From positions 13,561 to 77,560 of the IMG/VR virus record IMGVR_UViG_3300021354_000005: a stretch of DNA of 64,000 nt; one strand, written 5' to 3'. The notes below the pieces were generated by a model. That model saw only the letters and a list, made by a program, of their open reading frames with translations, did no database searches and was not told the DNA's origin. Positions within the stretch are counted from its first letter, which is position 1; the number at the start of each line of letters is the position of its first letter. This stretch comes from a virus. Taxonomy: Duplodnaviria > Heunggongvirae > Uroviricota > Caudoviricetes. Shown in pieces: positions 1 through 63,971 of the stretch. Made by a program: the position numbers and the translations under genes.

Positions 1-152
1 GGTGGCACCTTAATTTCAGGGCCTCCTAAATTAACTATACCACCCTTAAATTGTTCAAAAGTTTCAGGAGCAGTAGTTGCCTGTTCACCAACATTTGGTA
101 AGTCAATGCCTAAAGTTGAAGGAGGAGTATTATCAGAAAGTTGATCAGCCAT
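1..152 (-). CDS. N-terminal part of a further leftward gene, unknown function; continues past the window start
   Basis: ATG at 152-150 on the minus strand, 3 nt beyond the stop of the 908-aa gene. Open frame to the window edge; begins MADQLSDNTPPSTLGIDLPNVGEQ. Confidence 0.4.
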   Translation of the reverse strand, partial: MADQLSDNTPPSTLGIDLPNVGEQATTAPETFEQFKGGIVNLGGPEIKVP

Positions 153-154
153 CT

Positions 155-6445: not shown

Positions 6446-9001
6446 TTATTTGTATTTATTCAGCCAGCCACCATTTTTATTATCTTCAAAATATCTAGGT
6501 TCCATTCCTTTAGGAATATCTCTTGAAGCATTTGGATTACCTACAGGACTATTTGCATATGCCTCAGGATTGAAGTTTGGATTTCTTTTAGCAAATCCAG
6601 GTTCTTCCCAATAGTTAATGGGCCCTCTTGTAACTCGTTGTGTAATAGTTGGTTTAGGAACTTCTTTATATCCTTTTAACCAATCTTGTTTATATATTTT
6701 TAAATTAGGATTGTCTATTCCTATTTTATCTCTAGCTACAAATATATTTGGATCAGGAGCATAATAAGCATGACTATTCTTTGCCATTCTACTCCCTATT
6801 TGATTATTACTTTGCACTTCTAACATGTGAGGACCTTGATATGTACCACCTTCCATAACTGAACTACTATATCTATTATCTATTGGAGTTCCTTTAGAGA
6901 AAAATGGATATCCATCTTTATAAAAACTTTGTTGATTGTTTCTTACAATTCCAGATGTTTGTAAATCTTCTAATCCAGCATCACCTATCATCCTATAATA
7001 ATTTTCAGAATTAGGTGTAAACGCATAAGGGTTTAATTTATAAGCATTCTTTAAAGCTGTCTCTTCTGTAAGATATTTACCTGCAAACTTTCCTGCTGCC
7101 ATCCCACCTTCAACTAATGCTGCAAACTCCATAGCATCTTGCATATTTGCAGCACCTTTACTAGCAGCCATTCTATTTAATGGGGCATTTTGCTCAGCTA
7201 ATCTTTGTTGTTTCTCTCTATCTAATCTTTCAGTTTCTCCTGCTTTAGGAGTGTATTGAGACATTGTAGATCTGTTAGTATTTTGTCTAGCTAAGAACTC
7301 TTCAGCTTGTTTCTTTAAATCTACATTTAATCTTGTACCATCTTGAGCCATTGGGTATTCTGTAACCTTCTTACCATCAAACTTATAGTGTTGATCAGGA
7401 TACATCATTTGCTGATGTCCTGTATCAGATACACCAAGAACAGGATAATCAACTCCTTCCATTGTAATATTATTAGAATTGATTCTTGTTACCTCACCTG
7501 GATGAGCCCATTGACCCATATCATCTTCAATTACAGAACCATTCTTACTTATAGTCTTAGGAGTGAAATCTAATCCATTCTGATAGAAACTCATTTCCTT
7601 GCCATTCTGGGCACTTGCTTTTGTCTTCTTAGTATACTTACCATTAGCAGGAGCTGAGCCAGCTGTGCGTGCGTATGTGAATCCTACAGCACCTGGCATA
7701 CTTCCACCCATTTGCATTTTTGGTTTTCCTGTCTTAGGATCTATTTTACTTAATACATTAGTTCCCATTTTATATCCAGAGGTATTATCTATAGATGAAG
7801 CAAACCATTCAGCTTGTTCAGGTGTCTTAAAATTTATATATTCTCCTGTAGAATCTGCATAATCATATCCTTTATCACCAGGAAGATATTGAAGTTTACC
7901 ATGTATGTTTACCACTTCAGGATAAGCTCTAGTTTTATAATTAGCCATATAGTGTGTACTTCTACCATGTTCGCCAGGTATTTGTATACTTCCTAAACTA
8001 GGATCATATAGTCTATGCACAAAGTCTAGATTCTTATTAGCATTTAATGTACTATCTACAAAAGCTTTTTTATCTGTGTTCCATAAATTACCACCATTCT
8101 GAAACTGTCCACCCCATGCAGGAGACTTCCAATTAGATGCACCATAACCAAGTCCTACAAATCCAGGACCTGTAGAATCTTTAGCATCATTATAGTTACT
8201 CTGTTTACCATAGTTATCATGAATCTTTTCTAATACCATTCCACCTTGCTCATATTTATTTAACCAGCCCCCATTCTCTTTCTTAGGCTCATCTTTAGCA
8301 TTTAAGAACTTTTTGGTAGTCTTATCAGTCCATTGTCCACCTGTGTCATGAAGAGCTTTAAATGCTCTTGTCACCTTACTGTGTGTAACTATGTCATCAT
8401 CTTTAGGAGCATTATCTGCAAATTTAAATGCTTTCTCCATTCTAGCTTTAAAGCTATCAAAAGATTCTCCACCAGGAACAGGAGTGCTAGATTTAGCAGC
8501 CCATTGCTTTTCTTTAAAGCTTCCTTCTGGAGCTCCATCATATTCACCAATATCCCATGTTCTTAACACAGGATTGTTGTACACAGGTAAGTTTGCTGTT
8601 TGTCCAATAACATCTGCTGTTTCTTTAGCTCTTTGTATATCACTTGTAATAACAGCTTTCTTTCCTCTCTTTAGAGCTTCTTCACCAACACTCTTTGCAT
8701 ACTCAACTCCTTTCTTTGTAAGATTTGTTGGATTAACTCCATTCTCTTCTTTATCTGCTGTAGCTGTATCTTCTCCATGTTCAAATACTTCTGTTCCATT
8801 AATTCTTATTGGAGCAGCTTTAGGACCAACAACATCTCCACCATTAGCATATTTATCTAACCATCCTCCATCTTTATATGGTTTAGCACCTCCAGAGATA
8901 GCTCCAAAAAATCTTCTTTGCTTATCTGTAAGAGGATGCCCATGAACAGATTTGTCATGTAGAATTTCTCTAGCTTTATTTGATGTTAAACTCTTTGCCA
9001 T
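6446..9001 (-). CDS. large virion protein (851 aa) with GGWLNKY repeats and a degenerate histidine-phosphatase-like segment
   Basis: GGWL(D/N)KY occurs three times, including the extreme C-terminus. Segment EHGED...LTKKGVEYAKSVGEEAL...AVITSDIQRAKETA resembles the RHGE...SPLxRAxQTA core of the PGAM/SixA histidine phosphatase fold, with the Arg replaced by Glu. Confidence 0.45.
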   Translation of the reverse strand: MAKSLTSNKAREILHDKSVHGHPLTDKQRRFFGAISGGAKPYKDGGWLDKYANGGDVVGPKAAPIRINGTEVFEHGEDTATADKEENGVNPTNLTKKGVEYAKSVGEEALKRGKKAVITSDIQRAKETADVIGQTANLPVYNNPVLRTWDIGEYDGAPEGSFKEKQWAAKSSTPVPGGESFDSFKARMEKAFKFADNAPKDDDIVTHSKVTRAFKALHDTGGQWTDKTTKKFLNAKDEPKKENGGWLNKYEQGGMVLEKIHDNYGKQSNYNDAKDSTGPGFVGLGYGASNWKSPAWGGQFQNGGNLWNTDKKAFVDSTLNANKNLDFVHRLYDPSLGSIQIPGEHGRSTHYMANYKTRAYPEVVNIHGKLQYLPGDKGYDYADSTGEYINFKTPEQAEWFASSIDNTSGYKMGTNVLSKIDPKTGKPKMQMGGSMPGAVGFTYARTAGSAPANGKYTKKTKASAQNGKEMSFYQNGLDFTPKTISKNGSVIEDDMGQWAHPGEVTRINSNNITMEGVDYPVLGVSDTGHQQMMYPDQHYKFDGKKVTEYPMAQDGTRLNVDLKKQAEEFLARQNTNRSTMSQYTPKAGETERLDREKQQRLAEQNAPLNRMAASKGAANMQDAMEFAALVEGGMAAGKFAGKYLTEETALKNAYKLNPYAFTPNSENYYRMIGDAGLEDLQTSGIVRNNQQSFYKDGYPFFSKGTPIDNRYSSSVMEGGTYQGPHMLEVQSNNQIGSRMAKNSHAYYAPDPNIFVARDKIGIDNPNLKIYKQDWLKGYKEVPKPTITQRVTRGPINYWEEPGFAKRNPNFNPEAYANSPVGNPNASRDIPKGMEPRYFEDNKNGGWLNKYK

Positions 9002-10747: not shown

Positions 10748-13700
10748 TTATTTAAGAATAGCTGTTCCAGCAATTAATGTACAGTTTATAGGTGATGGTA
10801 ATAATGTAGCACTACCAGCTGTCAATCCACAATTTGTAGATGATACCACAACAGCACTTCCTGGTGTTAATGTACAATCAGACCCTCCACATATATAAGC
10901 ATTAGCTTGATATAGTGCACCTGTTCTTGTTGTATTATATGTAGGAGAATAAGGATTAATATCTATTTGTTGATAATGTTGATCAACTCCAACACAAACC
11001 CAATGTACATTAATATCTTGATTCACCCATTCAGGAGTAACATTTATAGCATCACCACTTAAGTTACAATTCAATATAACTGTTGTAGTGGTTGTAGTAG
11101 TTGGATTAGGAAGCTCTTGTACAGCTATTGCATGTAAGTCACATCCTTCATTCAAACCAGAATAAAATATATTGTTTTCTGCTATATAGAAGTTAGGGAT
11201 ATAGCTATGAAAACTTACCCAACTTTTTGTATTTACATTAAATGATAATGTCCAAGACTTATTACAGAAGTATTTAGGATCTGTAAGATTTACATATTGT
11301 CTAAGTGTTGTTGAACCATAAGTCTTATTTATATAAAACTTCTTAAGAGCACTATCATATTGAATAACTCCTACATAAGCTAACTGAGGAATATAATCTA
11401 ACTTGCTGATAATCACTCTATCATACTTACTATCATATACACCATGTACACCTATACCATTAAAATGATTATCTACATCTGCATTAGCATAATATCTAAG
11501 TATCTCAAATGGTAAGTGATCTGTAATAAATCTGTTCACACCAGAACCAAAGCCAGTGATATCTTCAGGAACATATTTACCATACATACTTAATGATATC
11601 AAAAATATCTGACCTCTCTTAGCATCTATTGTAATTTGTCCTTGAGGAATCTTTAATAAGAACTTATTCTGTGTACCTACATATCCAAGATTTGTTTCAG
11701 CAAAATCTACTGGAGGATTGCCAAACAATGAAGGATTACCCAAATAAGCAGCTTGAGGATTACTTGTATTCATTGTTAACAATGTATTGTATAACAATGA
11801 CTTATTCTCAAATCTAGCTAGAATAGATTTATTCTGAATACCATCTAAAGAAACTAACTTACCAAAGTTTTCTGGAAAGTCAAAGAAAGAAATAGGTGCA
11901 TAGTTTAACCAGCTATTAACTCTTGTACTAGGATTAGATGATTGTTGTTCAGAATATATAACTCTAAATGGATAGTATGTATAACAATTATCAGGTTTCC
12001 AATCTACAGGCAAATGAGAGAAATAGTTTTCTTTATTTTGCTTAGAGAACGTAACATTATATGTATATGTATTATCAAAAGCAATAGGAACAAAAGATTG
12101 TTGTAACCAGTTGTCAGGAATACCAGAGCTTACATGAGGATAGAAGTCTCCTTCTTGATTGTTAAATGCTTGACGTAAATCAGTATTGATAGAAGATTCT
12201 ACATAGAAATATGGTATACCATATGCAAATAAATAGAACTTACCATCATAATAAGCATTTGTTGTACTTACAGTTACAGTTCCAGTCAAATCTTTAGTTG
12301 TACTAGTTGTAGTTGTAGTTGTACTTCCAATTGCTGGATTATTAGGACAGTCAAAGTAATGAGCTTTAACTGATATAATATTTTTAAGACTTGTTTTACC
12401 TGCTTGATAATTACTTAAAATAGACCTAGAAGAATGCCAGTATTGTGGATAAGCCACATTACCTATTTCATCATAATATATATCACTGTCATCAGGAGCT
12501 CCCACTCTATTATCAATAAAGAAAGGAAGTTTGGTTTTTAATGCAAACTTTCCAATAAATGTATCTCCACCAAATATTGTTTCATCTGTACCTGCTGTTG
12601 TAATAAGTCTTTGGAATCCTGTATCAATAGTATTATAAGAATACATTTGTCCCCATTGATTAAGAATTATATTCTTAATAGATCCATAATAGGATACCAC
12701 CTTAATATCTTTTTGATCTTCTGGTGTAGCACAATTGCCATTTTCTGATAAAGTAAATCTTGATATATCAGAAATCTCAGATATTCCATTATTAAGAAGA
12801 TTAGGTGTTCTATTTACATATGGAAGAGGATTAGTTCCTGCTGTCTTTAAATAAACAGAAGATTCTCTTTGATAGTTATTTATTGTAAGATCATCACCAA
12901 CTGATTCTACACCAGGAATAAGATATTGATATATATCAAGTTCTCTTTGTTTAATACCTAAACCATTATCTACAGAAACACCATAATCATAACTAGCTAT
13001 AGAGTTAAATGAATATGCATAGTTTCTTCTAGTGATACCATTTATATAAAGTTGTAAATATGCTTGATAAGCAGTGAACATTGCTGTAGCATCAAGTGTA
13101 CCTGTAGTCATAGCAATATTATAGCTTGAGTTCAAAGCATCTACTTGTGCACTTTCACTTATTAGTTTATATTGAGCATTCTTTTTAACTTGTACAAAAT
13201 GGGCTTTACCAGCACCAAAAATTGCATTCTCTATCTTAAGAACATTACCTAATGTAGGCTGTCCAAAAGAAGTTTCAGGTGAATTGAATACATATCTATA
13301 TTTAGAACCATCATCAGAAAATCCATTCAAATTAGCTGGATAACATATTGTATTCTTATTATTATTATTTATTGTTACACTAGCTTTGTTTGATCCTCCT
13401 ACCACTTTAGGTAATGTAACAGAGTTTACATTTATTGGATTACCTGGATAAACATAAATATTAGTAAGTTGTTGTGTAAGAGCATCTGTATAATTAAACT
13501 CCGTGTAAGTAATATCATAACAGGTTAATACATAAGATGTACCGCTTATATTTGTAATAGTAGCTGTTCCTGTTGTTACAACAGGAAGTGTTACAGAACA
13601 TAAATTAAATATTTCATTACTAGTAAAAGTTCTCACTGCTATTTCGCCTGTATTACAATTAGTATATTGAACTGAACCAGCAATACTTGCTGATATACTA

Positions 13701-15568
13701 TAAGTAACACATTGTGAGTTATAAGCATTATTTTGTGCTAACAAAAATGGATCAGAACTTAAATCATTATAAGGATAATTAGGATAGTAGTAAGAAGTTC
13801 CTTCTCTTGAATATGTACCAACATTTCTTAATATACCTTTTGCTACAACAGATTGATTAGTGCTTCTATCTCCTCTAACCACCTTAAATCCAACAATTTG
13901 ATCTTTTGCATATTGTGTAAGAGAAGATTGACGTATTAATTCAAAAACTTGTTCTGAGTTTATTTTAACACCAATTGGAAATACAGCATCATTTTGCATC
14001 ACTGGTAATATTTGATTACCAGAATATATAATGGTTGGTGTTTCAAAAATAGGACTTACAGATACATCTGGAAACTTATGATGTCTAATAGGAGTATCAG
14101 CAAGATCTCCCCATACATCTGTATTACATGGATAAAGTTCTGTAGATTCCCAATAAGCAAATTCACCATATTGATAAGGTCCTTTATAAGTTGTCTTATC
14201 TACAGCAGCTGCATATTGAGGAGCATAGTCTGTTAGAGCTCCTGTATTGTATATTTTCCAATATGGAGCAACTGTTCCTGATCCAATATAGTCAGCATTA
14301 CTAGCTTTTGTTACATCTGGATGAGCTTCATTACCATTCTTTTTTCTACCAGGAATATGAAAACCATCTGTTTGCTTACCATTTCTAAGTAAGAAAACAA
14401 TCTCAAATGGATATATTTCATCTCTAAGATAACCTCTTAGATTAGCAGCATTTAATGGATCAGCATAGTTTTCTGTAGAAGGAATTCTCCAAGTTTCCCA
14501 TGCAAGATTAATTTGATTAGCAATCTTTTGATAATTCACTCTATCTATAGAAGTAAGATTATCCCATACTAATAAATCTTGAACTGATGTTATATCTTGA
14601 GCAATATCATAATAAGGAAACTTCTCAATTATATCTGCAGTGGAAAGTGGAATAGCTGTTACATCTTGACCTGAATAAACTATTTGTTTAGTAGCACCAT
14701 CAATAAAATATGTTCCTACCAATGAAACAGCACTAGCACCATTTATAGTTTTAATAACAGCCAAGTTATAATATTCAAAATACCCTGTAAGATCTATATT
14801 ACTAATATCTATTGCAATCGATTTACCCACAGGATAGTTAAAATCATTTGTGGTAAGTTGAGGATTAGCAATAGGTGTAGGATTGGTTACTGAATAGTAA
14901 GAAGTGTAAGCATCTCCTAGAGCACTACAGTATTGAATGGCAAACTGATATGTTCCAGCTATTAAAGCTCCACCATTAAGAATACTATTAATTGATAATT
15001 GTGGTATATTAAAATTAGGCTGAATACTTAACTTATTACAATCAATTACAGGAAGTTCAATTGGGTTACAAATAACTCCATCTGGATAAATTGTAGTAAG
15101 TGGAGGATTATTTAAATCTATAAATCTTCTAGGATTAAGACCATCTGTCCAATATACCTCTGTTGTACAGTTTGTAATCTTATGTACAGCTTTATGAATT
15201 GGATATTCTATATTAAAATTAAGACAATCTCCATTAATGTATTTATGATAAACACAATCATTATTAACCATATATCCTATTTCAGAACCTCCTGTTAAAG
15301 GATTTGCTAAAAAGAATATATGTTTACTTTGTTCTTGAATAAAGTGTTGACCAATAAGTTGATAACCATCAGGAAATTGTAGGCAAAAGGTATTTCCCTG
15401 CTCATTCTGATAGTTAACAGAATTAGCATCAAAGTTTTCCAATGCAGCATTTAAGGCATAAGTAAGCTTACCTTTCTCAACCTGATTTACGGTTGAATCC
15501 ATATTTAAACCAATTCTACCAAGATTATACTCTTGTCTAATTGGTCCTTGTTGTTGTTCTTCAGCCAT
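10748..15568 (-). CDS. giant structural protein (1606 aa); likely tail spike, central fibre or host-recognition protein
   Basis: 4.8-kb uninterrupted ORF. Two poly-Thr linkers (STTTTTTSTT and PTTTTTTTV) and a Cys-rich C-terminal region. No catalytic motif recognised. Confidence 0.55.
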   Translation of the reverse strand: MAEEQQQGPIRQEYNLGRIGLNMDSTVNQVEKGKLTYALNAALENFDANSVNYQNEQGNTFCLQFPDGYQLIGQHFIQEQSKHIFFLANPLTGGSEIGYMVNNDCVYHKYINGDCLNFNIEYPIHKAVHKITNCTTEVYWTDGLNPRRFIDLNNPPLTTIYPDGVICNPIELPVIDCNKLSIQPNFNIPQLSINSILNGGALIAGTYQFAIQYCSALGDAYTSYYSVTNPTPIANPQLTTNDFNYPVGKSIAIDISNIDLTGYFEYYNLAVIKTINGASAVSLVGTYFIDGATKQIVYSGQDVTAIPLSTADIIEKFPYYDIAQDITSVQDLLVWDNLTSIDRVNYQKIANQINLAWETWRIPSTENYADPLNAANLRGYLRDEIYPFEIVFLLRNGKQTDGFHIPGRKKNGNEAHPDVTKASNADYIGSGTVAPYWKIYNTGALTDYAPQYAAAVDKTTYKGPYQYGEFAYWESTELYPCNTDVWGDLADTPIRHHKFPDVSVSPIFETPTIIYSGNQILPVMQNDAVFPIGVKINSEQVFELIRQSSLTQYAKDQIVGFKVVRGDRSTNQSVVAKGILRNVGTYSREGTSYYYPNYPYNDLSSDPFLLAQNNAYNSQCVTYSISASIAGSVQYTNCNTGEIAVRTFTSNEIFNLCSVTLPVVTTGTATITNISGTSYVLTCYDITYTEFNYTDALTQQLTNIYVYPGNPINVNSVTLPKVVGGSNKASVTINNNNKNTICYPANLNGFSDDGSKYRYVFNSPETSFGQPTLGNVLKIENAIFGAGKAHFVQVKKNAQYKLISESAQVDALNSSYNIAMTTGTLDATAMFTAYQAYLQLYINGITRRNYAYSFNSIASYDYGVSVDNGLGIKQRELDIYQYLIPGVESVGDDLTINNYQRESSVYLKTAGTNPLPYVNRTPNLLNNGISEISDISRFTLSENGNCATPEDQKDIKVVSYYGSIKNIILNQWGQMYSYNTIDTGFQRLITTAGTDETIFGGDTFIGKFALKTKLPFFIDNRVGAPDDSDIYYDEIGNVAYPQYWHSSRSILSNYQAGKTSLKNIISVKAHYFDCPNNPAIGSTTTTTTSTTKDLTGTVTVSTTNAYYDGKFYLFAYGIPYFYVESSINTDLRQAFNNQEGDFYPHVSSGIPDNWLQQSFVPIAFDNTYTYNVTFSKQNKENYFSHLPVDWKPDNCYTYYPFRVIYSEQQSSNPSTRVNSWLNYAPISFFDFPENFGKLVSLDGIQNKSILARFENKSLLYNTLLTMNTSNPQAAYLGNPSLFGNPPVDFAETNLGYVGTQNKFLLKIPQGQITIDAKRGQIFLISLSMYGKYVPEDITGFGSGVNRFITDHLPFEILRYYANADVDNHFNGIGVHGVYDSKYDRVIISKLDYIPQLAYVGVIQYDSALKKFYINKTYGSTTLRQYVNLTDPKYFCNKSWTLSFNVNTKSWVSFHSYIPNFYIAENNIFYSGLNEGCDLHAIAVQELPNPTTTTTTTVILNCNLSGDAINVTPEWVNQDINVHWVCVGVDQHYQQIDINPYSPTYNTTRTGALYQANAYICGGSDCTLTPGSAVVVSSTNCGLTAGSATLLPSPINCTLIAGTAILK

Positions 15569-38371: not shown

Positions 38372-38720
38372 GTATCACATTAATTTGTAATGTAATGTCC
38401 TTATCAAAATTCAGGACAATAATTGGATTCACCTTTATCTTACTGCCATCCTTTATAAACACCCCTATACGCTTCAGCTTACTTATCATATTATTAATCG
38501 TAGGGGGCGAGGAGTTGTATTTCTTGCAGAACTCTTCTCTGATGTTGGCATAGGAGATGTTTCCCTTTATAGCTGTAAAGGCTATAAGCTGTATCTCCCT
38601 GGTGGTAAGTTTTAAATCATTAACAGCTGACAGCAAACTATAATACTTCTCAGCAGCAGCATAACTATCTGTCACTTGCTTCTTAAGCTTCTGTACTATT
38701 ATTTTGTTTGTTGGTTCCAT
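38364..38720 (-). CDS. putative HTH transcriptional regulator; first gene of the leftward operon
   Basis: C-terminal segment TTREIQLIAFTAIKGNISYANIREEF...INNMISKLKRIGV resembles sigma region-4/LuxR-type helix-turn-helix. Gene abuts the control region. Confidence 0.4.
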   Translation of the reverse strand: MEPTNKIIVQKLKKQVTDSYAAAEKYYSLLSAVNDLKLTTREIQLIAFTAIKGNISYANIREEFCKKYNSSPPTINNMISKLKRIGVFIKDGSKIKVNPIIVLNFDKDITLQINVIHG

Positions 38721-39731
38721 ATATAATTAGAACAAAGGTAGGTGTATTCCATTGATCTTCAAATAACTATTTTAATTATTCATAAACTTATTGCTATATT
38801 ATCCACTATTTTTCTCATTGGTGTATTTAGAAGAACCTAAGCCCTATTCTCCTTCCCCACCCACACTCCCCAAAGTTAATGGTGTCCTTGTGATATAAAC
38901 AAATTTATTTTTAAAATGTGGATAACTTGAATGACAGGATATTATAATCTAGGTACAGCAAGATATTATAAATGGGAGCAACCTGATAAAAATAGGTGCA
39001 AAAGCATATAATATATTATAAACAGTGCAAACTATATTCAAAAACATATAATGTCCCTTATATAGGACAACCTATAGCTTGACATGTCCCTTATAAGACA
39101 CATTATGTTCACAAATAAAGCTTGTTCACGAATACGTGAACAGAAGAAAAATGTGAACAATATGTAAAGCAATAGCTTGACAAAACGTAAGATGGGTAAA
39201 GCCATAGCTTGACTTTTGGCAGAATATAGACTTGTTATATCTTGCCAAATGATTGATAAATGTCCAGATTTTGATCGATAAAACTGGACAATCTAGGAAG
39301 TGAAAAGCTGCCAAACCAGGAAGTCCTTGTTACCTTTATATATAAATGTGTCACAAATATTTGAAAAAGTGTGACATGCCCTGCATGAAACTTTGGAAAA
39401 ATTCATGCAAACATTTAACATGGGCCCATGGAACAATTAACATTAAACACATCTAACTTATTGGTTGTTAAGCAATTAAGTCCATAGTTCCACAAGGAAC
39501 GTTTTACAAAATTTTTTTTCCAATTTTACAAACCTTTTATATTAAGGTGAGGGGAGTCCACACCACATCACAACCCCCTGTGCAAGTTGGGAGGTTGGGG
39601 GTGCTCCCCATGCTTCGAGTGGTCAAATTGAATTCTTAAAACAGAGTTCAGAAAACAGATTTTTGAGACCATACCCTGTCATAACCCTCAACCAGTCATA
39701 ACCCTTTTTACAATCTAAAATAAATAAAATT
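38721..39731. promoter_or_regulatory. divergent control region between late (leftward) and early (rightward) arms; candidate promoters, operators or origin
   Basis: 1 kb noncoding. Contains ATAGCTTGAC x3, TGTTCAC/GTGAACA x4 (including the perfect palindrome TGTTCACG-AATA-CGTGAACA), a 31-bp near-palindrome TGTCCAG...CTGGACA, TGTGTCACA/GTGTGACA, GATATTATAA x2, TGTCCCTTATA x2, GTCATAACCCT x2, a C-rich tract and a GC island. Confidence 0.6.
39546..39625 (+). other. GC-rich structured island (candidate small RNA, leader structure or protein-binding site)
   Basis: GGGGAG at 39551-56 pairs with CTCCCC at 39604-09. Nested CCCCC/GGGGG and GGGG-TGCT-CCCC stems. Sharp GC spike in an otherwise AT-rich spacer, ~100 nt upstream of the first rightward ORF. 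Confidence 0.35.
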
Positions 39732-39953
39732 ATGAGAAGTACAGAAATTATTGCTTACCAATTAGAGAATGATGGTATATGTAGATTTGTTTACCACAAA
39801 TCAATAGAATCATTAGAAGTAGTATCAGTGGATAACTACTTAGGAATGAGAGACTTTTTAAAACGCTCTGGTGGACAACAACTTCCTAATAACAAAGACA
39901 TTCACAAATGGGCTAAAGAAATGGAGACACAGCTCTCTGTTGCTGTTCATTAG
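39732..39953 (+). CDS. hypothetical early protein (73 aa)
   Basis: First ORF of the rightward arm. A-rich start context. Confidence 0.45.
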   Translation: MRSTEIIAYQLENDGICRFVYHKSIESLEVVSVDNYLGMRDFLKRSGGQQLPNNKDIHKWAKEMETQLSVAVH

Positions 39954-57175: not shown

Positions 57176-58180
57176 ATGATTAACGGTAAAAGAAAGACTA
57201 AGTTAACACCAGAAGCTATCCTTGACAAGATTAGTGAGTATGATATTTTTAAATATTATATGCCTAATCATGACTGGAAGCTTAATCAGGTGACTTATTC
57301 CCCCTTTAGAATAGAGAATAATCCTTCATTTGTTATTGGTAATAAGAGAGGATTCTTATCATTCATAGACTTTGCAGATACAAATAAGCGTGGTAATTGT
57401 TTTGATTTTGTCAGAGCATTATATAACCTACGTACATTTGATGATGTATTGAGACTAATTGATAAAGATTTTAACTTAGGTATAGTTACAGGTAAATATA
57501 CAGATGATTATAAAAGAATAACATCTGAGTATAAACAACCTGAGCTTGAGAAGCGTTATGCATTCATTCAGGTGACTACTAGGAAGTTCACAAAAGAAGA
57601 ACTTGCTTATTGGTCCACTTATTACCAGGATATACAAGACCTTAGAGATAATAACATCTATTCAATCAAAAACCTCTACTTAAACAAGTCTAAGTTTGTT
57701 CTCCCAGAGAATGAATTAAGGTTTGGCTATCTATATGAAGGACAGTATTGGAAAATATATAGACCATTTGCTGAAAAGAAACAGAAATGGATGCCCAATA
57801 ATGTTCCTATTACATGTATGGATGGTAAAGAAGATATAATTAATTGTGAGACTGCTTTTATCAATAAAAGTAAGAAGGATTATATGGTAATGAAAAAGGT
57901 ATTTCCTTGCTGCTGTGCAGTTCAGAATGAAGGTATTGGTTGCTTCTCCCATGAGAATGTGGAGTATTTAAAAGCTAACAGTGATAAACAAATCCTAAGT
58001 TTTGATAGTGATGTTACAGGTGTTACCAATTCTCAGCAGATAACTAAGTTATTTGACTTTGGTTATTGTAATGTCCCTAGGAGATATCTCAAAGAGGGAA
58101 TAAAAGATTGGGCTGATTTAGCTAAAGCTCATGGTTTACAAGCTATACAAAATCATTTAATTAACAAAAGAATTCTATAA
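57176..58180 (+). CDS. DNA primase-like protein with a degenerate DnaG-type zinc-binding domain
   Basis: YSPFRIENNPSFVIG...FADTNKRGNCFDFVRAL parallels the DnaG zinc ribbon CPFHxEKTPSFxV...YHCFGCGxxGxxIxFV with the Cys ligands mostly replaced. Sits in the replication cluster near the DnaB-like helicase. Confidence 0.45.
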   Translation: MINGKRKTKLTPEAILDKISEYDIFKYYMPNHDWKLNQVTYSPFRIENNPSFVIGNKRGFLSFIDFADTNKRGNCFDFVRALYNLRTFDDVLRLIDKDFNLGIVTGKYTDDYKRITSEYKQPELEKRYAFIQVTTRKFTKEELAYWSTYYQDIQDLRDNNIYSIKNLYLNKSKFVLPENELRFGYLYEGQYWKIYRPFAEKKQKWMPNNVPITCMDGKEDIINCETAFINKSKKDYMVMKKVFPCCCAVQNEGIGCFSHENVEYLKANSDKQILSFDSDVTGVTNSQQITKLFDFGYCNVPRRYLKEGIKDWADLAKAHGLQAIQNHLINKRIL

Positions 58181-58944
58181 TGGAAAGTCTAAAAACGTAC
58201 AATAGTACATTGGAACTTCTTACAAGTGCACCAGTTCCTGCACAAACAAGAACATATAAACCAGTTAGTCATTCATCTCTAATCGACTTAACAATGAATG
58301 GTATTGAGAAAGCAGGCTTTATATTAGGCAAAGCTAGATATTCATCAGCTAGAGATGGTCAAGTTGCTAATGGTAGATTTACTATCACTAATGTTGCTGA
58401 TAGTGAAATGGAGTTACAAATTGGCTGGCAGAATAGCTATGACAGAAGCATGAGCTTAAAGTTTGCTATTGGTACAAGAATTCTTGTATGCTCTAATGGT
58501 TGTGTATCAGGAGATTATGGTGCATTCAAAAAAAGACATAAAGGTGATATTCAAGACTTTACACCATCTGCTATTACAGACTATATAAAACAAGCAGGTG
58601 ATGCATTTAAACTTATGCAACAGCAAAGAGAAGCTATGAAACAAGTAGAAATCACTAGACGTGTAAAAGCTGAGCTTATTGGTAGAATGATGATTGAAGA
58701 ACAATTTATTAGTTCTACCCAGTTAAACATCATTAGCAAGGAATTAACTAATCCTTCTCATGATTATGGTGCTCCAGATAGCTTATGGGAGTTATATAAT
58801 TACACCACATTTGCTATGAAGGAAATACATCCCACTTTATGGATGCAAAATCATATACAAGCTCACAAATTCTTTAATGAATATAGTGAGAATGTAATTG
58901 ATGTTCAACCTGAAGAAACATTTACACAAATATCAATATTTTAA
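58180..58944 (+). CDS. DUF932-like phage/plasmid protein
   Basis: PVSHSSLIDLTMNGIEKAGF...RDGQVANGRFTITNV...LQIGWQNSYDRSMSLKFAIGTRILVCSNG follows the conserved DUF932 layout as recalled. Not searched. Confidence 0.45.
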   Translation: MESLKTYNSTLELLTSAPVPAQTRTYKPVSHSSLIDLTMNGIEKAGFILGKARYSSARDGQVANGRFTITNVADSEMELQIGWQNSYDRSMSLKFAIGTRILVCSNGCVSGDYGAFKKRHKGDIQDFTPSAITDYIKQAGDAFKLMQQQREAMKQVEITRRVKAELIGRMMIEEQFISSTQLNIISKELTNPSHDYGAPDSLWELYNYTTFAMKEIHPTLWMQNHIQAHKFFNEYSENVIDVQPEETFTQISIF

Positions 58945-58945
58945 T

Positions 58946-59665
58946 ATGAATTGGGAGAAATTTAAAGAATGCTTTCATGAGTCTTGGCATGCAAAAATGC
59001 AACCATTTATTGAAAGTGAGGCTTGTGATAACATCTATAAATATCTCAAATCTGAGAGTCAGAGGGGCAAGAAGATTGCTCCTCTCTCCCAGAATGTATA
59101 TAGATGCTTTCTAGAGACTCCATTAGATGAGTTAAAGGTGGTTATGGTAGGTATGGCTCCATATCACACATTAAGACATGGATCTCCTATAGCAGATGGT
59201 TTATTAATGAGTTGTTCTGTTACTGGTGAGCTACAACCTTCATTAACTCAATTCTACAAAGCTGTAGAACTAGAGGTGTATGATGGATTATGTGCTTATT
59301 GTAACAAAGAGAACCCAGATTTAAAATATCTGGCTCATCAAGGTGTATTGATGTTTAATGCATCTCTCACTGTTGAGATTAATAAAGCAGGCTCACATAT
59401 AGAACTATGGGAACCATTTACTAAATATGTATTTGAGGAGATATTAGCAACCACAGGAGCTCCAGTTATATTCCTGGGTAAAGATGCTGCTCAATATCAA
59501 AAGTATGTACCACCATTTACATGGTCATTTGCTACATCTCACCCAGCTAGTGCTGCATATAGAAACACACAATGGGAATCAGGAGATGTTTTCAGAATGG
59601 TAAACAAGGTACTAAAAGACAACAACAATTTTCAAATCGAATGGTTAGATGGAGCACCATTCTAA
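58946..59665 (+). CDS. family-1 uracil-DNA glycosylase homolog lacking the catalytic Asp
   Basis: LAHQGVLMFNASLTVEINKAGSHIELWEPFTKYV matches E. coli Ung [35 protein letters not shown]. His motif SHPASAAYRN retained. The water-activating motif GQDPYH reads GMAPYH. Confidence 0.7.
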   Translation: MNWEKFKECFHESWHAKMQPFIESEACDNIYKYLKSESQRGKKIAPLSQNVYRCFLETPLDELKVVMVGMAPYHTLRHGSPIADGLLMSCSVTGELQPSLTQFYKAVELEVYDGLCAYCNKENPDLKYLAHQGVLMFNASLTVEINKAGSHIELWEPFTKYVFEEILATTGAPVIFLGKDAAQYQKYVPPFTWSFATSHPASAAYRNTQWESGDVFRMVNKVLKDNNNFQIEWLDGAPF

Positions 59666-59675
59666 AAACACAATT

Positions 59676-60035
59676 ATGTATACAGTTAAAAACGGTGGAG
59701 ATATCCACAAAGGTGATTTAGTTGCAATTAGCAACGGTAATGATTTTAGTGTAGGTATTTATTTTGGTCAGGGAAGAGGTGGTACATTTCAGTATTACTA
59801 TCCTAGTTCTCCTGGACAGTCTAAAACATATTATGAAGATAGACTAAAGCTTAATGGTATTGAAAAGACAGGACCATTTAAACTTGGTAATATATGGAAA
59901 GCCTATGTAAATACACCTAGAGATACTAGAATTATTAAGTTAAATAGAAGCAATATTACAGACCAAGAAACAATAGACAATATAATAGAATCAAAAGAAA
60001 TCCTTAAAGAATTTAATATTACAGTAAACTACTAG
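59676..60035 (+). CDS. hypothetical protein (120 aa)
   Basis: Track ORF trimmed to the Met after the upstream stop (MYTVKNGG...). Confidence 0.4.
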   Translation: MYTVKNGGDIHKGDLVAISNGNDFSVGIYFGQGRGGTFQYYYPSSPGQSKTYYEDRLKLNGIEKTGPFKLGNIWKAYVNTPRDTRIIKLNRSNITDQETIDNIIESKEILKEFNITVNY

Positions 60036-60039
60036 ACAC

Positions 60040-62397
60040 ATGATTTTAGAAAAACAAACCGAATCACACATCCTTGAAGAAGGAAGTACACAGGAAACTG
60101 TGAAAATGTCACTAGACTTAGATTCTGCACAAGTGTTGATGCAGATGTTAAGTAAGAATCTATATTCAGATTCAATAGGCTCTACTATCCGTGAATGTGC
60201 ATCTAATGCATTGGATAGTCATAGAAGAGCTGGATGTGACAAGCCTATCATTGTATCTTTCAAAAGAGCAAAGCAGGCAGATACATATGAATTTGCTGTT
60301 GAAGATTTTGGTATTGGTTTAGATGCAGATGATGTACGTAACATTATCAGTAAGTATGGTAAATCAACCAAGCGTAATAGCAATACAGAATTAGGTATGA
60401 TGGGCTTAGGTTTTAAGGCACCTTTAGCATATAGCTCTAGCTTCTATTTTGTATGTAGAAAAGATGGTATGGAGCGTAAGTATATGATGTATGAAGGAGA
60501 TGATACAAATAGTATTGATCTTCTTTATGAAACATCAACCACAGAAGCAAATGGTGTTAAGGTGATTGTACCAGTGAAGTATCACGATAGATACAATTTT
60601 ACTAATAAGATTAAGGAACAGTTAGCTTATTTTGAGAGTGTGTATTTTGATATAGATAACACAATTGGTCATACTGTAGATAATAACTTTATCATACATA
60701 GAGCTGAACATTATCAGTATTCTAGTCTTGCTAATAACAACTATATGCATTTGTGTTTAGACAATGTATCCTATCCAATTGACTGGGAGAAGCTTGGTAT
60801 TGATAGGATTAGTATGAAAATAGCTTTAAGATTTAGTCTTAGTGATGGATTATTTCCTACACCAAATAGAGAGTCTATTAGATATACACAGGAGGCTAAG
60901 CAAACTATTCTTGATAAGATAGCTATTGTAGCTAATATCTTTATGGAGAAGTTCAATGAGTCTATTACAGATAGTGCTGATATTAAGACTATTATGGAGT
61001 ATTATAGTAATAACGATAAGTCTATTAATGGTGATTTTATAGGACAATCAGGAAGACTTGATATAAACCATTTACTTAAACATGCTACAACCAGTAGTAA
61101 GCAGCCTAAATTAAAAGGTGCAGAATCATTGAACTTAAAGAGAATCGCTGAAATGTGTAAAGATTACATGTTAGCTGAGTATCAAGTTAAGTATAGATAT
61201 AATAGTAATAGATTTAATAAATCTACTAACTATTGGACTACTAACTTAAGAGTGAATGATTTTTCAAATTTTGGTTTTGGTGGTATATATCTATTTAGTG
61301 ATAGACTTAATAAAGGTAAACAAGACTATTTAAGAAGTATATTAGGAGATAATAATAATACATATTATTTTGTTAAAAAAGATAAACAATTTAAGCTTGG
61401 AGCTAAGACCGTTACAGATTGGGAAACTTACCATTCTATGTTAGATTTGAGAAACCATCCAAAGACTCAATGGAGACAAATGATTAAAGAGTTTAGATAT
61501 ATAATAGAAATGTATTCTAAAACCTTTATTGATGCAGATGCTATTGATATACCACAAGCGTTCATAGATGCCCAAAAGGCTAAAAGAATGAAGGTGTTAG
61601 TAAAACCTACCACTGTAAATGGTGTTAAGAAAGTTAGAATGAAAGGTGAGTTCTCTGGTAAAAAAGGTGAATCAACCCAAAACAACCTAACTGACCAATA
61701 TTGTAAGTTTGTCCCTAATACGTATAAAATGGAGGATATCCATAAATTAACAAAGTTACATGTATATGCTAAAGAAACTGATAAGAAGAAAATGGATAAT
61801 GCTTGGTCTTGTTTTAATAAACATGCAGCATTTATATTAGTTGCACAAGCAACCTATGACAACTTACAGAAAGCTGATTTACATAACTGGATAACAATTG
61901 ATAAATTTATGGAAGGTAAAAATAGACCATTTAAGACAGTAGCTACAGAATTTCTAATCAGCGATTTGATTGAAAAATATAGTGCTACATTTAAAAGAAT
62001 AAATACAGTTAAAGAGATATCTGCTGATTTAGCAGATAAATTACAGACATTACATGAGTATCATAATAGTCAATATAGGAGTTATGCTGATGATAACACT
62101 AAAAAAGCAGTTATAGAACATGCTATAGCAAACAATTTATTTGACCAGCCTACATATTTAGTGTACAAGCAGGTTAATGAAGTGTTTACTAAGCTAACGT
62201 TCTTAGATGCTATATTAGATACAATGCATTATAGTAATTCTAAAAAGGATTCTCCTATGATGGTAGCTATAGTTGATTTATTCAAATATCATAAACATAA
62301 AGTTAATCTAGAGCATTATAAAATAAAATTAACAGAAGATGCTCCATTAGATGAAACATTAACAGAAGAAACAATTGACGAATTACAAACAATTTAA
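60040..62397 (+). CDS. Hsp90/HtpG-like GHKL ATPase (785 aa)
   Basis: N-terminal LMQMLSKNLYSDSIGSTIRECASNALDS is similar to the Hsp90 N-terminal signature region. G1 box VEDFGIGLDADD. G2 GMMGLGFKAPLAYS. Middle-domain-like loop LSDGLFPTPNRESIRY resembles the Hsp90 catalytic-Arg loop. Confidence 0.6.
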   Translation: MILEKQTESHILEEGSTQETVKMSLDLDSAQVLMQMLSKNLYSDSIGSTIRECASNALDSHRRAGCDKPIIVSFKRAKQADTYEFAVEDFGIGLDADDVRNIISKYGKSTKRNSNTELGMMGLGFKAPLAYSSSFYFVCRKDGMERKYMMYEGDDTNSIDLLYETSTTEANGVKVIVPVKYHDRYNFTNKIKEQLAYFESVYFDIDNTIGHTVDNNFIIHRAEHYQYSSLANNNYMHLCLDNVSYPIDWEKLGIDRISMKIALRFSLSDGLFPTPNRESIRYTQEAKQTILDKIAIVANIFMEKFNESITDSADIKTIMEYYSNNDKSINGDFIGQSGRLDINHLLKHATTSSKQPKLKGAESLNLKRIAEMCKDYMLAEYQVKYRYNSNRFNKSTNYWTTNLRVNDFSNFGFGGIYLFSDRLNKGKQDYLRSILGDNNNTYYFVKKDKQFKLGAKTVTDWETYHSMLDLRNHPKTQWRQMIKEFRYIIEMYSKTFIDADAIDIPQAFIDAQKAKRMKVLVKPTTVNGVKKVRMKGEFSGKKGESTQNNLTDQYCKFVPNTYKMEDIHKLTKLHVYAKETDKKKMDNAWSCFNKHAAFILVAQATYDNLQKADLHNWITIDKFMEGKNRPFKTVATEFLISDLIEKYSATFKRINTVKEISADLADKLQTLHEYHNSQYRSYADDNTKKAVIEHAIANNLFDQPTYLVYKQVNEVFTKLTFLDAILDTMHYSNSKKDSPMMVAIVDLFKYHKHKVNLEHYKIKLTEDAPLDETLTEETIDELQTI

Positions 62398-62408
62398 AAA
62401 ACAAAAAC

Positions 62409-63971
62409 ATGGGATTATTTAGCCTAAGCTGGTTCAAGAGCCAGAAAGAAAAACAAATTGAAGATTTACGACATGACATTAGAGTTAAAGAATTAGAAAA
62501 AGCATTAGAAAGAATAGATGCTAAACCAGTAGATACTTTTCAAACTGGTTATAATCCTTTTACTGCTGCAACATGGACACCTGCACCAAATTTTAGTACT
62601 GCTGCAGGAGAATATACACCAATCTCTAAGCCATATACAAATATAAAGATGGTGAATGATACATTGACTATTGTATTATTAGATGGTTCTATCATTACTA
62701 AGTCTCCTGCAACTGCAGGGGATTTTAATACTGCTAGAGACTGTAGAACAGAATCTTGTTTATTAAATCTTGTAAGCACACAGGAAGTTAAGGATCAGAG
62801 AAGAAAGGCTGAAGCAGAATATGAGAAGGTAAAAGCTGTAGCAAGAGGTGCTGAGCATTTAGCTACATTAGATGAGTTTGAAATGAAACATGGTAGTTTG
62901 TATCTAAAGGGTATCAACAGAAGCATTCCACCATTAATGGTAGAGGAATTCTTAGAAATTGTTGGTACCAGAGGTGGTACAGATAATGACCAGTTTCAAG
63001 CTTTACACAGATTTTTTATGTGGTGTTGCTTGAATCCTAGAGCTGAGGTAGCTGATAAGTTATATAACTTCTTACAGAAGAATAGCTTTAAGATTACTAA
63101 GCAGGGGTTCTTTGTAGCTCTTCGTAATGTGGTTACACTCCATGGATCTACAGAACTAGTACAATTCATCAGCAATGCTTACAACAAGGTGAAGGCTGTA
63201 TGGAAGAAAAGCCCAGCTGATTACACTGTATTCCTAGAGAATGGTGAGTATAGAATGGTTCATAAAGACTGGTTATTCAAAGTTGAAAAATGTACATGTG
63301 AATATTGTGATGGTACAGGATCTATTCCTGAAGGTGATTATGGTGATGGATGGGAAGATAGTTGTGAGTGTCCAGAGTGTGATGGTGAAGGTATGTATGA
63401 GCACACTGTTAAAATTGAAAATGGTGAAGAGATTGGTGGTTTAACAGATTTATATCTTGATCTTCCTAATAGAGCAGAGAATAGATTTACAGATGCTCAT
63501 ACAAAGACATTTGATATCAGAATTGGTAGACCAGTAAGTATGCCTATGGAGAAATGCAGATGGAATACTGATGATTGTGGTGCTGAAGGTTTACACTTTA
63601 CTAGTGATGAGATTCATTATGTAGGTTGTGGTGATACGAGCGTTCTCGTACTTATTAATCCAATGAAGGTTGTAGGTATTGGTGAGTCTAAGGGTAGATG
63701 TTATGAGTATTTACCAATTATGACTGTTCCTACTGATGAAGCAACAGACATTTTACATGATTTAGACTTTGATACATTAGAGTTGGATGAGTCTTATGCT
63801 GTGCGTGAATTAGAAAACTTGGCTGAGAAAGCTAAAGAAGGATTCACAGCTGAAGCTAAGAAGTATGATTTTAATCTTCCTGCTTTATCTGCTGTAGAAG
63901 TGTATACAATTGTGAAATCTTTAGATGAAATTAAGCAAGAAATATCTAAAAGAATCGTAACAATTGATTAA
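62409..63971 (+). CDS. protein with DnaJ-type CxxCxGxG zinc fingers (520 aa), no J domain
   Basis: CTCEYCDGTGS and CECPECDGEGM (two CxxCxGxG units) in the C-terminal half. N-terminal coiled coil. No HPD motif. Confidence 0.5.
   Translation: MGLFSLSWFKSQKEKQIEDLRHDIRVKELEKALERIDAKPVDTFQTGYNPFTAATWTPAPNFSTAAGEYTPISKPYTNIKMVNDTLTIVLLDGSIITKSPATAGDFNTARDCRTESCLLNLVSTQEVKDQRRKAEAEYEKVKAVARGAEHLATLDEFEMKHGSLYLKGINRSIPPLMVEEFLEIVGTRGGTDNDQFQALHRFFMWCCLNPRAEVADKLYNFLQKNSFKITKQGFFVALRNVVTLHGSTELVQFISNAYNKVKAVWKKSPADYTVFLENGEYRMVHKDWLFKVEKCTCEYCDGTGSIPEGDYGDGWEDSCECPECDGEGMYEHTVKIENGEEIGGLTDLYLDLPNRAENRFTDAHTKTFDIRIGRPVSMPMEKCRWNTDDCGAEGLHFTSDEIHYVGCGDTSVLVLINPMKVVGIGESKGRCYEYLPIMTVPTDEATDILHDLDFDTLELDESYAVRELENLAEKAKEGFTAEAKKYDFNLPALSAVEVYTIVKSLDEIKQEISKRIVTID

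What the first reader, a model, noticed from the sequence alone, without database searches (positions are those of the whole stretch)
60040..63971. Adjacent Hsp90/HtpG-like ATPase and DnaJ-zinc-finger-like protein: a candidate phage-encoded chaperone module
The 785-aa ORF has the Bergerat-fold N-box, G1 and G2 motifs in Hsp90-type spacing. Its N-terminal motif (..NLYSDSIGSTIRECASNALDS) resembles the Hsp90 signature more than the MutL or GyrB versions. A downstream loop (SDGLFPTPNRESIRY) resembles the Hsp90 middle-domain catalytic-arginine loop (DLPLNISRE). The next gene, separated by a 12-nt gap, carries two DnaJ-type CxxCxGxG fingers but no J domain. To my knowledge a dedicated Hsp90-like system in a tailed phage has not been described. 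Giant 900-1600-aa virion proteins in the same genome would be plausible clients. An alternative reading is a MORC- or topoisomerase-like GHKL enzyme acting on DNA with a zinc-finger partner.
Basis: partly seen in the sequence, partly recalled or inferred. Interest (0 to 1): 0.8.

Follow-up and report, generated by a model that had tools for sequence, protein, structure and literature searches.

The report
Phage rIIA-rIIB gene pair
The two genes are this uncultured crAss-related phage's copies of rIIA and rIIB, a long-known phage gene pair that helps phages escape host suicide defences, so this is an ordinary finding and not a new chaperone system.

Summary
Both ORFs exist as described (60040-62397, 785 aa; 62409-63971, 520 aa). 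The gap between them is 11 nt, not 12. They are homologues of phage T4 rIIA and rIIB, not an Hsp90/DnaJ chaperone module.

The 785-aa protein matches the RIIA PHROG over its full length (E 3.8e-62) and T4 RIIA directly (E 8e-20). The 520-aa protein aligns to T4 and crAss-type RIIB in two blocks, and its confident model finds almost only RIIB proteins among viral structures. rIIA followed by rIIB is conserved in every phage lineage sampled, and RB43 has the two fused.

The two CxxCxGxG motifs are real. They sit in a ~45-aa variable loop found only in the nearest subclade (7 of 150 diverse relatives) and fall far below DnaJ-domain thresholds.

Verdict: new member of a known kind, low interest.

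The parts
60040..62397 (+). rIIA homologue (785 aa): N-terminal GHL-type ATPase module followed by a family-specific C-terminal region
60157..60219 (+). Bergerat N-box region (aa 40-60; invariant Y42, R51, E52, N56, D59)
   Evidence: Invariant in the alignment of six diverse RIIAs. Aligns to the HtpG segment LYSNKEIFLRELISNASDA and to T4 [21 protein letters not shown].
60298..60324 (+). G1 box DxGxG (aa 87-95; D89, G91, G93)
   Evidence: Invariant in A1; coordinates.
60391..60432 (+). G2 box / ATP-lid GxxGxGxK (aa 118-131; G119, G122, G124, K126)
   Evidence: Invariant in A1. The low pLDDT at 107-132 fits a mobile lid.
60841..60885 (+). Loop with invariant R277-E278 (aa 268-282): candidate basic finger of a second, transducer-like domain
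   Evidence: R277 and E278 are invariant across RIIAs. The model shows strand 262-265, a loop, then a long helix 284-308. The equivalence to HtpG R336 is collinear but not significant.
62398..62408 (+). 11-nt intergenic spacer with no Shine-Dalgarno sequence and no terminator
   Evidence: Sequence read directly. No enrichment of promoter-like or terminator-like sites.
62409..63971 (+). rIIB homologue (520 aa)
   Evidence: RIIB PHROGs 609, 11221 and 36818 (E 6.7e-15 to 6e-7). Two-block BLASTP matches to T4 RIIB and to crAss-like cr116_1 RIIB. The model (pLDDT 85.8) gives 31 BFVD hits at E<=1e-3, and the named ones are almost all RIIB.
62652..63131 (+). RIIB conserved block 1 (aa 82-241)
   Evidence: Aligns to T4 RIIB aa 90-217 and to cr116_1 RIIB aa 7-155.
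63132..63476 (+). Clade-specific linker module (aa 242-356) absent from T4, Vibrio, Aeromonas, actinophage and cr116_1 RIIB
   Evidence: Alignment A2. Its flanks (..VKAVWKK....LYLDLPNRAENRFTD) are conserved in the wider metagenomic clade.
63276..63422 (+). Variable loop (aa ~290-338) carrying two CxCxxCxGxG motifs (nt 63297-63320 and 63369-63392): a predicted single zinc knuckle at a hairpin tip
   Evidence: Motifs located. Present in only 7 of 150 diverse representatives. Replaced by a much shorter linker or an unrelated insert in the others. Strands 290-296 and 329-335 flank it in the model.
63477..63728 (+). RIIB conserved C-terminal domain (aa 357-440; invariant T361, G394-L395-H396, G408, P418; near-invariant N417, K428, R430)
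   Evidence: Alignments A2, A5 and A6. Aligns to T4 RIIB aa 221-301.

Best explanation
These are the rIIA and rIIB genes of an uncultured phage related to crAss-like phages and the Cellulophaga phi17:2 group. They are probably co-transcribed at the end of the replication/early gene block.

RIIA is predicted to be an active GHL-type ATPase. Every Bergerat catalytic and nucleotide-binding residue is intact, and an invariant Arg-Glu loop follows in what appears to be a second domain. By analogy with other GHL enzymes, it would act as an ATP-driven dimeric clamp (inferred). RIIB is its obligate partner. Gene adjacency is conserved across distant phages, and the two genes are fused in phage RB43.

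From genetics on T4, N4 and other phages reported in the literature, the pair works as a conditionally needed counter-defence module. It lets the phage grow in hosts that carry abortive-infection systems which collapse the membrane potential (lambda RexAB in E. coli). In this phage's unknown host the target would be a different, analogous system (inferred).

The two CxxCxGxG motifs most likely bind one zinc ion that stabilises a subclade-specific surface loop in RIIB. They are not a DnaJ-like client-binding domain.
For: Identity:
- phrog_612 RIIA E 3.8e-62 over the full length, and RIIB PHROGs E 6.7e-15.
- T4 RIIA BLASTP E 8e-20. T4 and cr116_1 RIIB give two-block matches.
- The RIIB model finds almost only RIIB proteins in BFVD.

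Pairing:
- rIIA is followed by rIIB in cr116_1, Rhodococcus Dorin, Streptomyces Muntaha, Vibrio nt-1, Aeromonas phiAS5 and T4.
- The same holds in metagenomic relatives L008 and L009. In L009 the upstream protein is 33% identical to the window's RIIA over the full length, and UDG lies upstream as in the window.
- RB43 carries a fused RIIA-RIIB of 1,049 aa. phrog_609 (1,055 positions) is hit by the window's RIIA at its N-terminal end and by the window's RIIB at its C-terminal end.

ATPase competence:
- E52, N56, D59, D89, G91, G93, G119, G122, G124, K126, R277 and E278 are invariant.

Function (from the literature):
- Divergent rII modules (<40% identity) from T4, MM02, EdH4, SUSP1 and N4 are dispensable without Rex but needed against RexAB (PMC11879866).
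- RIIB is also sensed by a CARD-gasdermin defence system (PMC10312443).
- rIIA is described as a GHKL ATPase with a variable C-terminal domain and listed under poorly understood counter-defence systems (PMC7824862).

Zinc loop.
Against: - No experiment exists for this phage or its clade, and the host and any Rex-like target are unknown.
- Identity to T4 proteins is low (about 23% for RIIA), and BLASTP covers only the N-terminal 309 aa.
- The window's RIIB lacks the N-terminal helix-turn-helix seen in T4 and nt-1 RIIB.
- The molecular mechanism of rII is unsolved even in T4, so 'ATP-driven clamp' and 'counter-defence' are inferences carried over from other systems.
- The RIIA model has only moderate confidence (pLDDT 68.9).
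- ATPase activity and zinc binding were not measured.
Confidence: 0.85

Rival explanations
1. One reading: a dedicated phage Hsp90-like chaperone (785 aa) with a DnaJ-zinc-finger-like co-chaperone (520 aa) that folds the giant virion proteins.
For: The ATPase domain is closest in sequence to Hsp90 among cellular GHKLs. A collinear but non-significant alignment puts R277 on HtpG R336. Two CxxCxGxG motifs are present.
Against: - The Hsp90 similarity ends at about residue 185. There is no Pfam HSP90 hit in six RIIAs, NCBIfam gives 29.9 bits against a cut-off of 455, and the post-ATPase profile finds no Hsp90 middle domain.
- The Cys motifs are missing in 143 of 150 relatives. The DnaJ_CXXCXGXG score is 12.6 against 32.7 and there is no J domain. 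The only DnaJ-like structural hit has E 0.24.
- rII knock-downs in five phages do not impair growth without Rex (PMC11879866). That argues against a general folding role.
Confidence: 0.04
2. A DNA-directed GHKL machine, like MORC, MutL or Topo VI-B. RIIA would clamp or remodel DNA or replication complexes, with RIIB as a DNA-binding or regulatory partner. This could, for example, hide the DNA-protein signal that Rex-type sensors detect.
For: - The window protein alone hits Topo VI-B and MORC2 in the PDB.
- The genes sit in the replication block next to primase, UDG and DNA polymerase, and cr116_1 has the same neighbourhood.
- T4-type RIIB has an HTH, and Iyer et al. propose RIIB as a transcription factor (PMC7824862).
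Against: The window's RIIB has no HTH. No nuclease, topoisomerase or DNA-binding domain was detected in either protein. Sequence profiles favour Hsp90 over the DNA enzymes.
Confidence: 0.2
3. The classical database label: 'lysis inhibitor / membrane integrity protector'. The pair would act directly on the cell envelope to control lysis timing.
For: Annotations of homologues in phage records. The rapid-lysis phenotype of T4 r mutants is established knowledge.
Against: The label comes from a plaque phenotype, not from a mechanism. The secondary-structure output of the two models shows no obvious membrane-spanning helix. The genes lie in the replication/early block, not next to any lysis gene identified in the window.
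Confidence: 0.1

Closest known systems
Phage T4 RIIA (NP_049616; PHROG 612) and RIIA-like proteins of T4-like, N4-like, actinobacterial and crAss-like phages
   Same: Full-length profile match. N-terminal GHKL ATPase with the same invariant motifs, including Y42, RExxxNxxD, DxGxG, GxxGxGxK, YP and R277-E278. Lies directly upstream of rIIB.
   Different: Only about 23% identical to T4 RIIA, and the C-terminal half cannot be aligned by BLASTP. 60 aa longer. Found in a phage related to crAss-like phages and the Cellulophaga phi17:2 group.
Phage T4 RIIB (NP_049889; Pfam PF26926 Phage_T4_rIIB as named) and crAss-like RIIB (cr116_1 QOR59366, IAS virus)
   Same: Both conserved blocks and the G-L-H motif. 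Predicted fold matches RIIB models. Same position downstream of rIIA.
   Different: Lacks the T4-type N-terminal HTH. Carries a ~115-aa linker module between the two blocks, with a subclade-specific zinc-knuckle loop. Has an N-terminal long helix and a C-terminal helical tail.
Hsp90 family (HtpG, TRAP1, Grp94)
   Different: No detectable Hsp90 middle or C-terminal domain. The score is far below family thresholds. The genetics of rII do not indicate a chaperone role.
DnaJ cysteine-rich domain (PF00684) / Anti-TRAP
   Same: Uses the CxxCxGxG motif.
   Different: Two repeats, not four. 12.6 bits against a cut-off of 32.7, and Anti-TRAP 15.6 against 32. No J domain. Sits in a variable loop that is absent in most relatives.
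Other GHL ATPases with a second (transducer/S5-fold) domain: GyrB/ParE, Topo VI-B, MutL/PMS1, MORC, SMCHD1
   Different: Weaker sequence similarity than to Hsp90. No DNA-handling domains were found.

Membership tests
RIIA (phage T4 rIIA family) | Full-length match to the family profile | tested here: met
   phrog_612 E 3.8e-62, protein aa 1-735 against profile positions 1-712 of 725. Five further RIIA PHROGs also hit, plus phrog_609, which is labelled RIIB.
RIIA (phage T4 rIIA family) | Direct similarity to T4 RIIA | tested here: met
   BLASTP E 8e-20, aa 1-309 aligned from residue 1.
RIIA (phage T4 rIIA family) | N-terminal GHKL ATPase with intact N-box, G1 and G2 | tested here: met
   [not shown]
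RIIA (phage T4 rIIA family) | Encoded directly upstream of rIIB | tested here: met
   11-nt gap in the window. The same order is seen in eight other loci.
RIIA (phage T4 rIIA family) | Needed for growth on hosts with Rex-type abortive infection | not testable with these tools
   Known only from genetics in T4, N4 and others (PMC11879866).
RIIB (phage T4 rIIB family) | Match to family profiles and to T4 RIIB | tested here: met
   phrog_609 E 6.7e-15, phrog_11221 2.5e-8, phrog_36818 5.8e-7. T4 RIIB gives two HSPs, E 1e-6 and 1e-5. cr116_1 RIIB gives 5e-14 and 4e-9.
RIIB (phage T4 rIIB family) | Shared fold with RIIB proteins | tested here: met
   Foldseek against BFVD: 31 hits at E<=1e-3 (best 1.4e-25), and the named ones are almost all RIIB.
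RIIB (phage T4 rIIB family) | N-terminal helix-turn-helix as in T4 RIIB | tested here: not met
   HTH models hit T4 and nt-1 RIIB, but not the window, cr116_1, Dorin or L009 proteins. The feature is therefore lineage-specific and not defining for the family.
Hsp90 / HtpG | Hsp90-type N-terminal ATPase domain | tested here: met
   Similarity only: TRAP1 8e-9 and HtpG 6e-7; hhalign to HtpG 96.4% over 157 columns.
Hsp90 / HtpG | Family-level profile score (NCBIfam HSP90, Pfam PF00183) | tested here: not met
   NCBIfam PRK14083 29.9 bits against a cut-off of 455, residues 33-181 only. No PF00183 hit in any of six RIIAs.
Hsp90 / HtpG | Middle domain with the catalytic arginine loop | tested here: inconclusive
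   R277-E278 is invariant. A collinear alignment places it on HtpG R336, but at E 0.73. The profile of aa 183-335 finds no Hsp90 middle domain in the PDB. pLDDT is below 50 at 274-278.
Hsp90 / HtpG | C-terminal dimerisation domain | tested here: not met
   [not shown]
DnaJ cysteine-rich (zinc-finger) domain | Four CxxCxGxG repeats forming two zinc centres, scoring above the Pfam threshold | tested here: not met
   Only two repeats. PF00684 scores 12.6 bits against 32.7.
DnaJ cysteine-rich (zinc-finger) domain | Conserved in homologues | tested here: not met
   Present in 7 of 150 50%-identity representatives. The region is a variable loop.
   [not shown]

The most novel reading that the evidence does not exclude
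Probability: 0.12. Interest if true: 0.7.

Novelty: new member of a known kind. Interest (0 to 1): 0.22.

Why it matters
For this locus, the result mainly corrects an over-interpretation. A candidate 'phage Hsp90/DnaJ system' is in fact the familiar rIIA-rIIB module, already annotated in crAss-like phages. The pair should therefore be filed as a probable counter-defence module, not as a chaperone.

Two small points may interest specialists. First, three independent profile comparisons show that the RIIA ATPase domain is closer to Hsp90 than to MutL, GyrB or Topo VI-B. I found no paper in the searchable library that says this. Second, a large metagenomic clade (over 1,100 representative clusters at 50% identity) has an RIIB with an extra linker module, and one subclade has added a zinc-knuckle loop. 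Neither point changes what the genes are.

Tried and rejected
1. DNA-level search of the region against the phage collection (blastn) found no match, so the phage is known only from metagenomes.
2. A third homologue search with a diverse RIIB profile returned the same close clade again and added no diversity.
The RIIA model therefore rests on a shallow alignment (>=71% identity) and reaches only pLDDT 68.9.
4. A genome scan for diverse HtpG genes, meant to build an Hsp90 profile, returned only enterobacterial sequences >=89% identical. It was useless for a profile-profile test of the middle domain.
5. The profile of RIIA aa 183-335 against the PDB gave only spurious short-motif hits (Trf4 E 0.005, prefoldin).
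7. PADLOC defence models gave no hit for either protein.
8. The afdb50 fold library was unavailable.
9. The exact-sequence look-up of the window's RIIB found nothing on record, so the sample of origin was not identified.
10. A literature search for rIIA together with Hsp90 found only unrelated Fc-receptor papers.
Full report
**Observation.**
The spacer is 11 nt (AAAACAAAAAC), not 12, and neither gene has a Shine-Dalgarno sequence. Promoter-like and terminator-like sites are not enriched in the region, which is compatible with co-transcription. The quoted motifs are present: N-box at aa 40-60, G1 at 87-95, G2 at 118-131, and the loop SDGLFPTPNRESIRY at 268-282. There are two CxxCxGxG motifs, at aa 297-304 and 321-328 of the second protein. 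None of 20,000 shuffles of that protein produced two such motifs.

**What the genes are.**
Against PHROGs, the 785-aa protein matches the RIIA family over its whole length (phrog_612, E 3.8e-62, aa 1-735 on profile positions 1-712 of 725). The 520-aa protein matches three RIIB families through its C-terminal part (E 6.7e-15 to 5.8e-7). Pfam gives only sub-threshold GHKL hits for the first protein, and no HSP90 model hits. For the second protein, DnaJ_CXXCXGXG reaches 12.6 bits against a cut-off of 32.7.

tblastn finds relatives of the first protein in 2,684 phage records. Those listed are annotated RIIA, rIIA-like or hypothetical. The second protein finds the 'protector from prophage-induced early lysis' (rIIB) genes of the crAss-like phages IAS virus and cr116_1.

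Direct BLASTP to T4 RIIA gives E 8e-20 from residue 1 to 309. In an alignment of six RIIAs from very different phages, the invariant residues are Y42, R51, E52, N56, D59, D89, G91, G93, S109, K111, G119, G122, G124, K126, Y245, P246, R277 and E278. Both highlighted motifs are therefore RIIA-family signatures.

**The second protein.**
T4 RIIB aligns in two blocks (window 89-241 to T4 90-217; window 360-434 to T4 221-301). So does crAss-like RIIB (82-241 to 7-155; 357-511 to 161-313). About 115 residues (242-356) lie between the blocks and are absent from all six reference RIIBs. Both Cys motifs are in this stretch.

An exhaustive HMMER search of 1.84 billion cluster representatives found 1,133 relatives. 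Among the best 150, only 7 carry any CxxCxGxG motif, and all 7 are among the closest. 143 have none, including a 52%-identical protein of similar length. The alignment shows that the flanks of the linker are conserved in this wider clade. The motif-bearing segment (about aa 290-338) is a variable loop. In the other relatives it is replaced by a much shorter linker or, in one case, by an unrelated insert. Within the close clade (>=72% identity) the motifs are kept: 147 of 163 proteins have two and 16 have one.

**Pairing.**
rIIA is immediately followed by rIIB on the same strand in the following phages:
- crAss-like cr116_1, where rIIA is split by an endonuclease gene and primase and UDG are neighbours, as in the window;
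- Rhodococcus phage Dorin, Streptomyces phage Muntaha, Vibrio phage nt-1 and Aeromonas phage phiAS5;
- T4, across the ends of its record.

Two metagenomic relatives whose RIIB lacks the Cys loop show the same order. In one of them (L009) the upstream 769-aa protein is 33% identical to the window's RIIA over its full length (E 1e-120), and UDG lies upstream. Phage RB43 encodes a fused RIIA-RIIB of 1,049 aa. This explains why the 1,055-position phrog_609 is hit by the window's RIIA at its start and by its RIIB at its end.

**How Hsp90-like is RIIA?**
- A profile of the six RIIAs searched against all PDB sequences hits the Hsp90 family first: TRAP1 8e-9, HtpG 6e-7 and Grp94 1e-5, ahead of Topo VI-B at 4e-6.
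- hhalign gives HtpG 96.4% (E 1e-9, 157 columns, RIIA 14-175 on HtpG 3-183), MutL 88.8% and GyrB 15%.
- The window protein's best NCBIfam hit is 'HSP90 family protein' (E 2e-7), followed by the Hsp90-like sacsin domain and then MutL.

All of these matches stop at the end of the ATPase domain.
- The NCBIfam score is 29.9 bits against a cut-off of 455, and no RIIA hits Pfam HSP90.
- Alignments of 190-268 residues to two-domain chains suggest a second, transducer-like domain. In GHL enzymes this domain supplies a basic finger to the active site (PMC2292703).
- In the model, R277-E278 sits in a loop between strand 262-265 and a long helix 284-308. hhalign of aa 183-335 against HtpG picks a collinear stretch (HtpG 225-373) and places R277 on the catalytic R336. 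The score is E 0.73, which is noise level.
- A profile of that segment finds no GHL second domain in the PDB.

So the ATPase domain is Hsp90-like in sequence. The arginine-loop equivalence is plausible but unproven. Membership of the Hsp90 family fails on the features that define it.

**Genome context.**
The window is a tailed-phage genome. On the - strand lie the terminase, portal, major head protein, tail fibre and a 1,606-aa homologue of the crAss-virus muzzle protein. On the + strand lie DNA polymerase, primase, DUF932, UDG, rIIA and rIIB. The closest isolated relatives by terminase are Leptolyngbya phage Lbo-JY46 (39%), Cellulophaga phages phi17:2 and phi4:1 (31%) and crAss-like phages (26-30%). 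Nothing links them to rII.

**Mechanism.**
What is shown here: identity as rIIA/rIIB, intact ATPase motifs, a conserved operon and a natural fusion.

What comes from the literature:
- rII is a widespread, poorly understood module.
- Knock-down of RIIA or RIIB from five divergent phages does not affect growth without Rex, but reduces plating on RexAB-expressing cells (PMC11879866).
- RIIB expression alone triggers a CARD-gasdermin defence system (PMC10312443).
- rIIA is described as a GHKL ATPase with a variable C-terminal domain, listed among counter-defence systems. RIIB has been proposed as a transcription factor (PMC7824862).

What is inferred: RIIA acts as an ATP-gated dimeric clamp with RIIB as partner, and protects the infected cell against an abortive-infection system of this phage's unknown host. 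The dispensability of rII in permissive hosts argues against a general role in virion protein folding.

**Verdict.**
This is a new member of a known kind. The locus is ordinary. The Hsp90-ward affinity of the RIIA ATPase domain and the subclade-specific zinc-knuckle loop in RIIB are modest points for specialists.

Noticed in passing
[not shown]
   Followed up: partly
BFVD entry Q56C47 (Escherichia phage RB43); PHROG 609: A natural RIIA-RIIB fusion protein of 1,049 aa exists. The 1,055-position phrog_609, labelled RIIB, is hit by the window's RIIA at profile positions 30-317 and by the window's RIIB at positions 954-1043.
   Followed up: partly
window 10748-15568 (-): The 1,606-aa ORF is a homologue of the crAss-virus muzzle protein (PF25731, 107.8 bits against a cut-off of 27). 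It also matches virion structural protein PHROGs. This points to a crAss-like tail architecture in a phage whose terminase is closest to those of a Leptolyngbya phage and Cellulophaga phages.
   Followed up: partly
window 6446-9001 (-): An 851-aa ORF in the virion-gene block carries a histidine-phosphatase (His_Phos_1) domain at aa 74-213 (E 5e-20). This is unusual for a large structural-module protein.
   Followed up: no
window 38720-39732: A ~1-kb gene-free stretch separates the leftward virion genes from the rightward early/replication genes. It lies close to the minimum of cumulative GC skew. It holds three copies of a 23-nt repeat ending in ATAGCTTGAC(A/T) (39062, 39160, 39192) and several short direct and inverted repeats. 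It may be an early promoter or origin region.
   Followed up: partly
window 58180-58944 and 58898-59665 (+): A DUF932 protein (E 9.6e-11) and a UDG-superfamily protein (E 4.7e-7; the listed ORF starts at TTG and overlaps the DUF932 ORF by 47 nt) lie just upstream of rIIA. UDG upstream of rIIA also occurs in the distant relative L009, and UDG lies next to rIIB in cr116_1.
   Followed up: partly
locus L001 (uncultured phage cr116_1), 2327-5533: In this crAss-like phage the rIIA gene is split. A 125-aa N-terminal piece and a 565-aa C-terminal piece are separated by an intron-type endonuclease gene. The 565-aa piece aligns to aa 167-294 of the window's RIIA, including the PNRES loop.
   Followed up: partly
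window 60030-60040 and 62398-62408: Neither rII gene has a Shine-Dalgarno sequence upstream. No tRNA genes are present in the 64-kb window. The lack of Shine-Dalgarno sequences is compatible with a Bacteroidota-type host, but the host was not determined.
   Followed up: no
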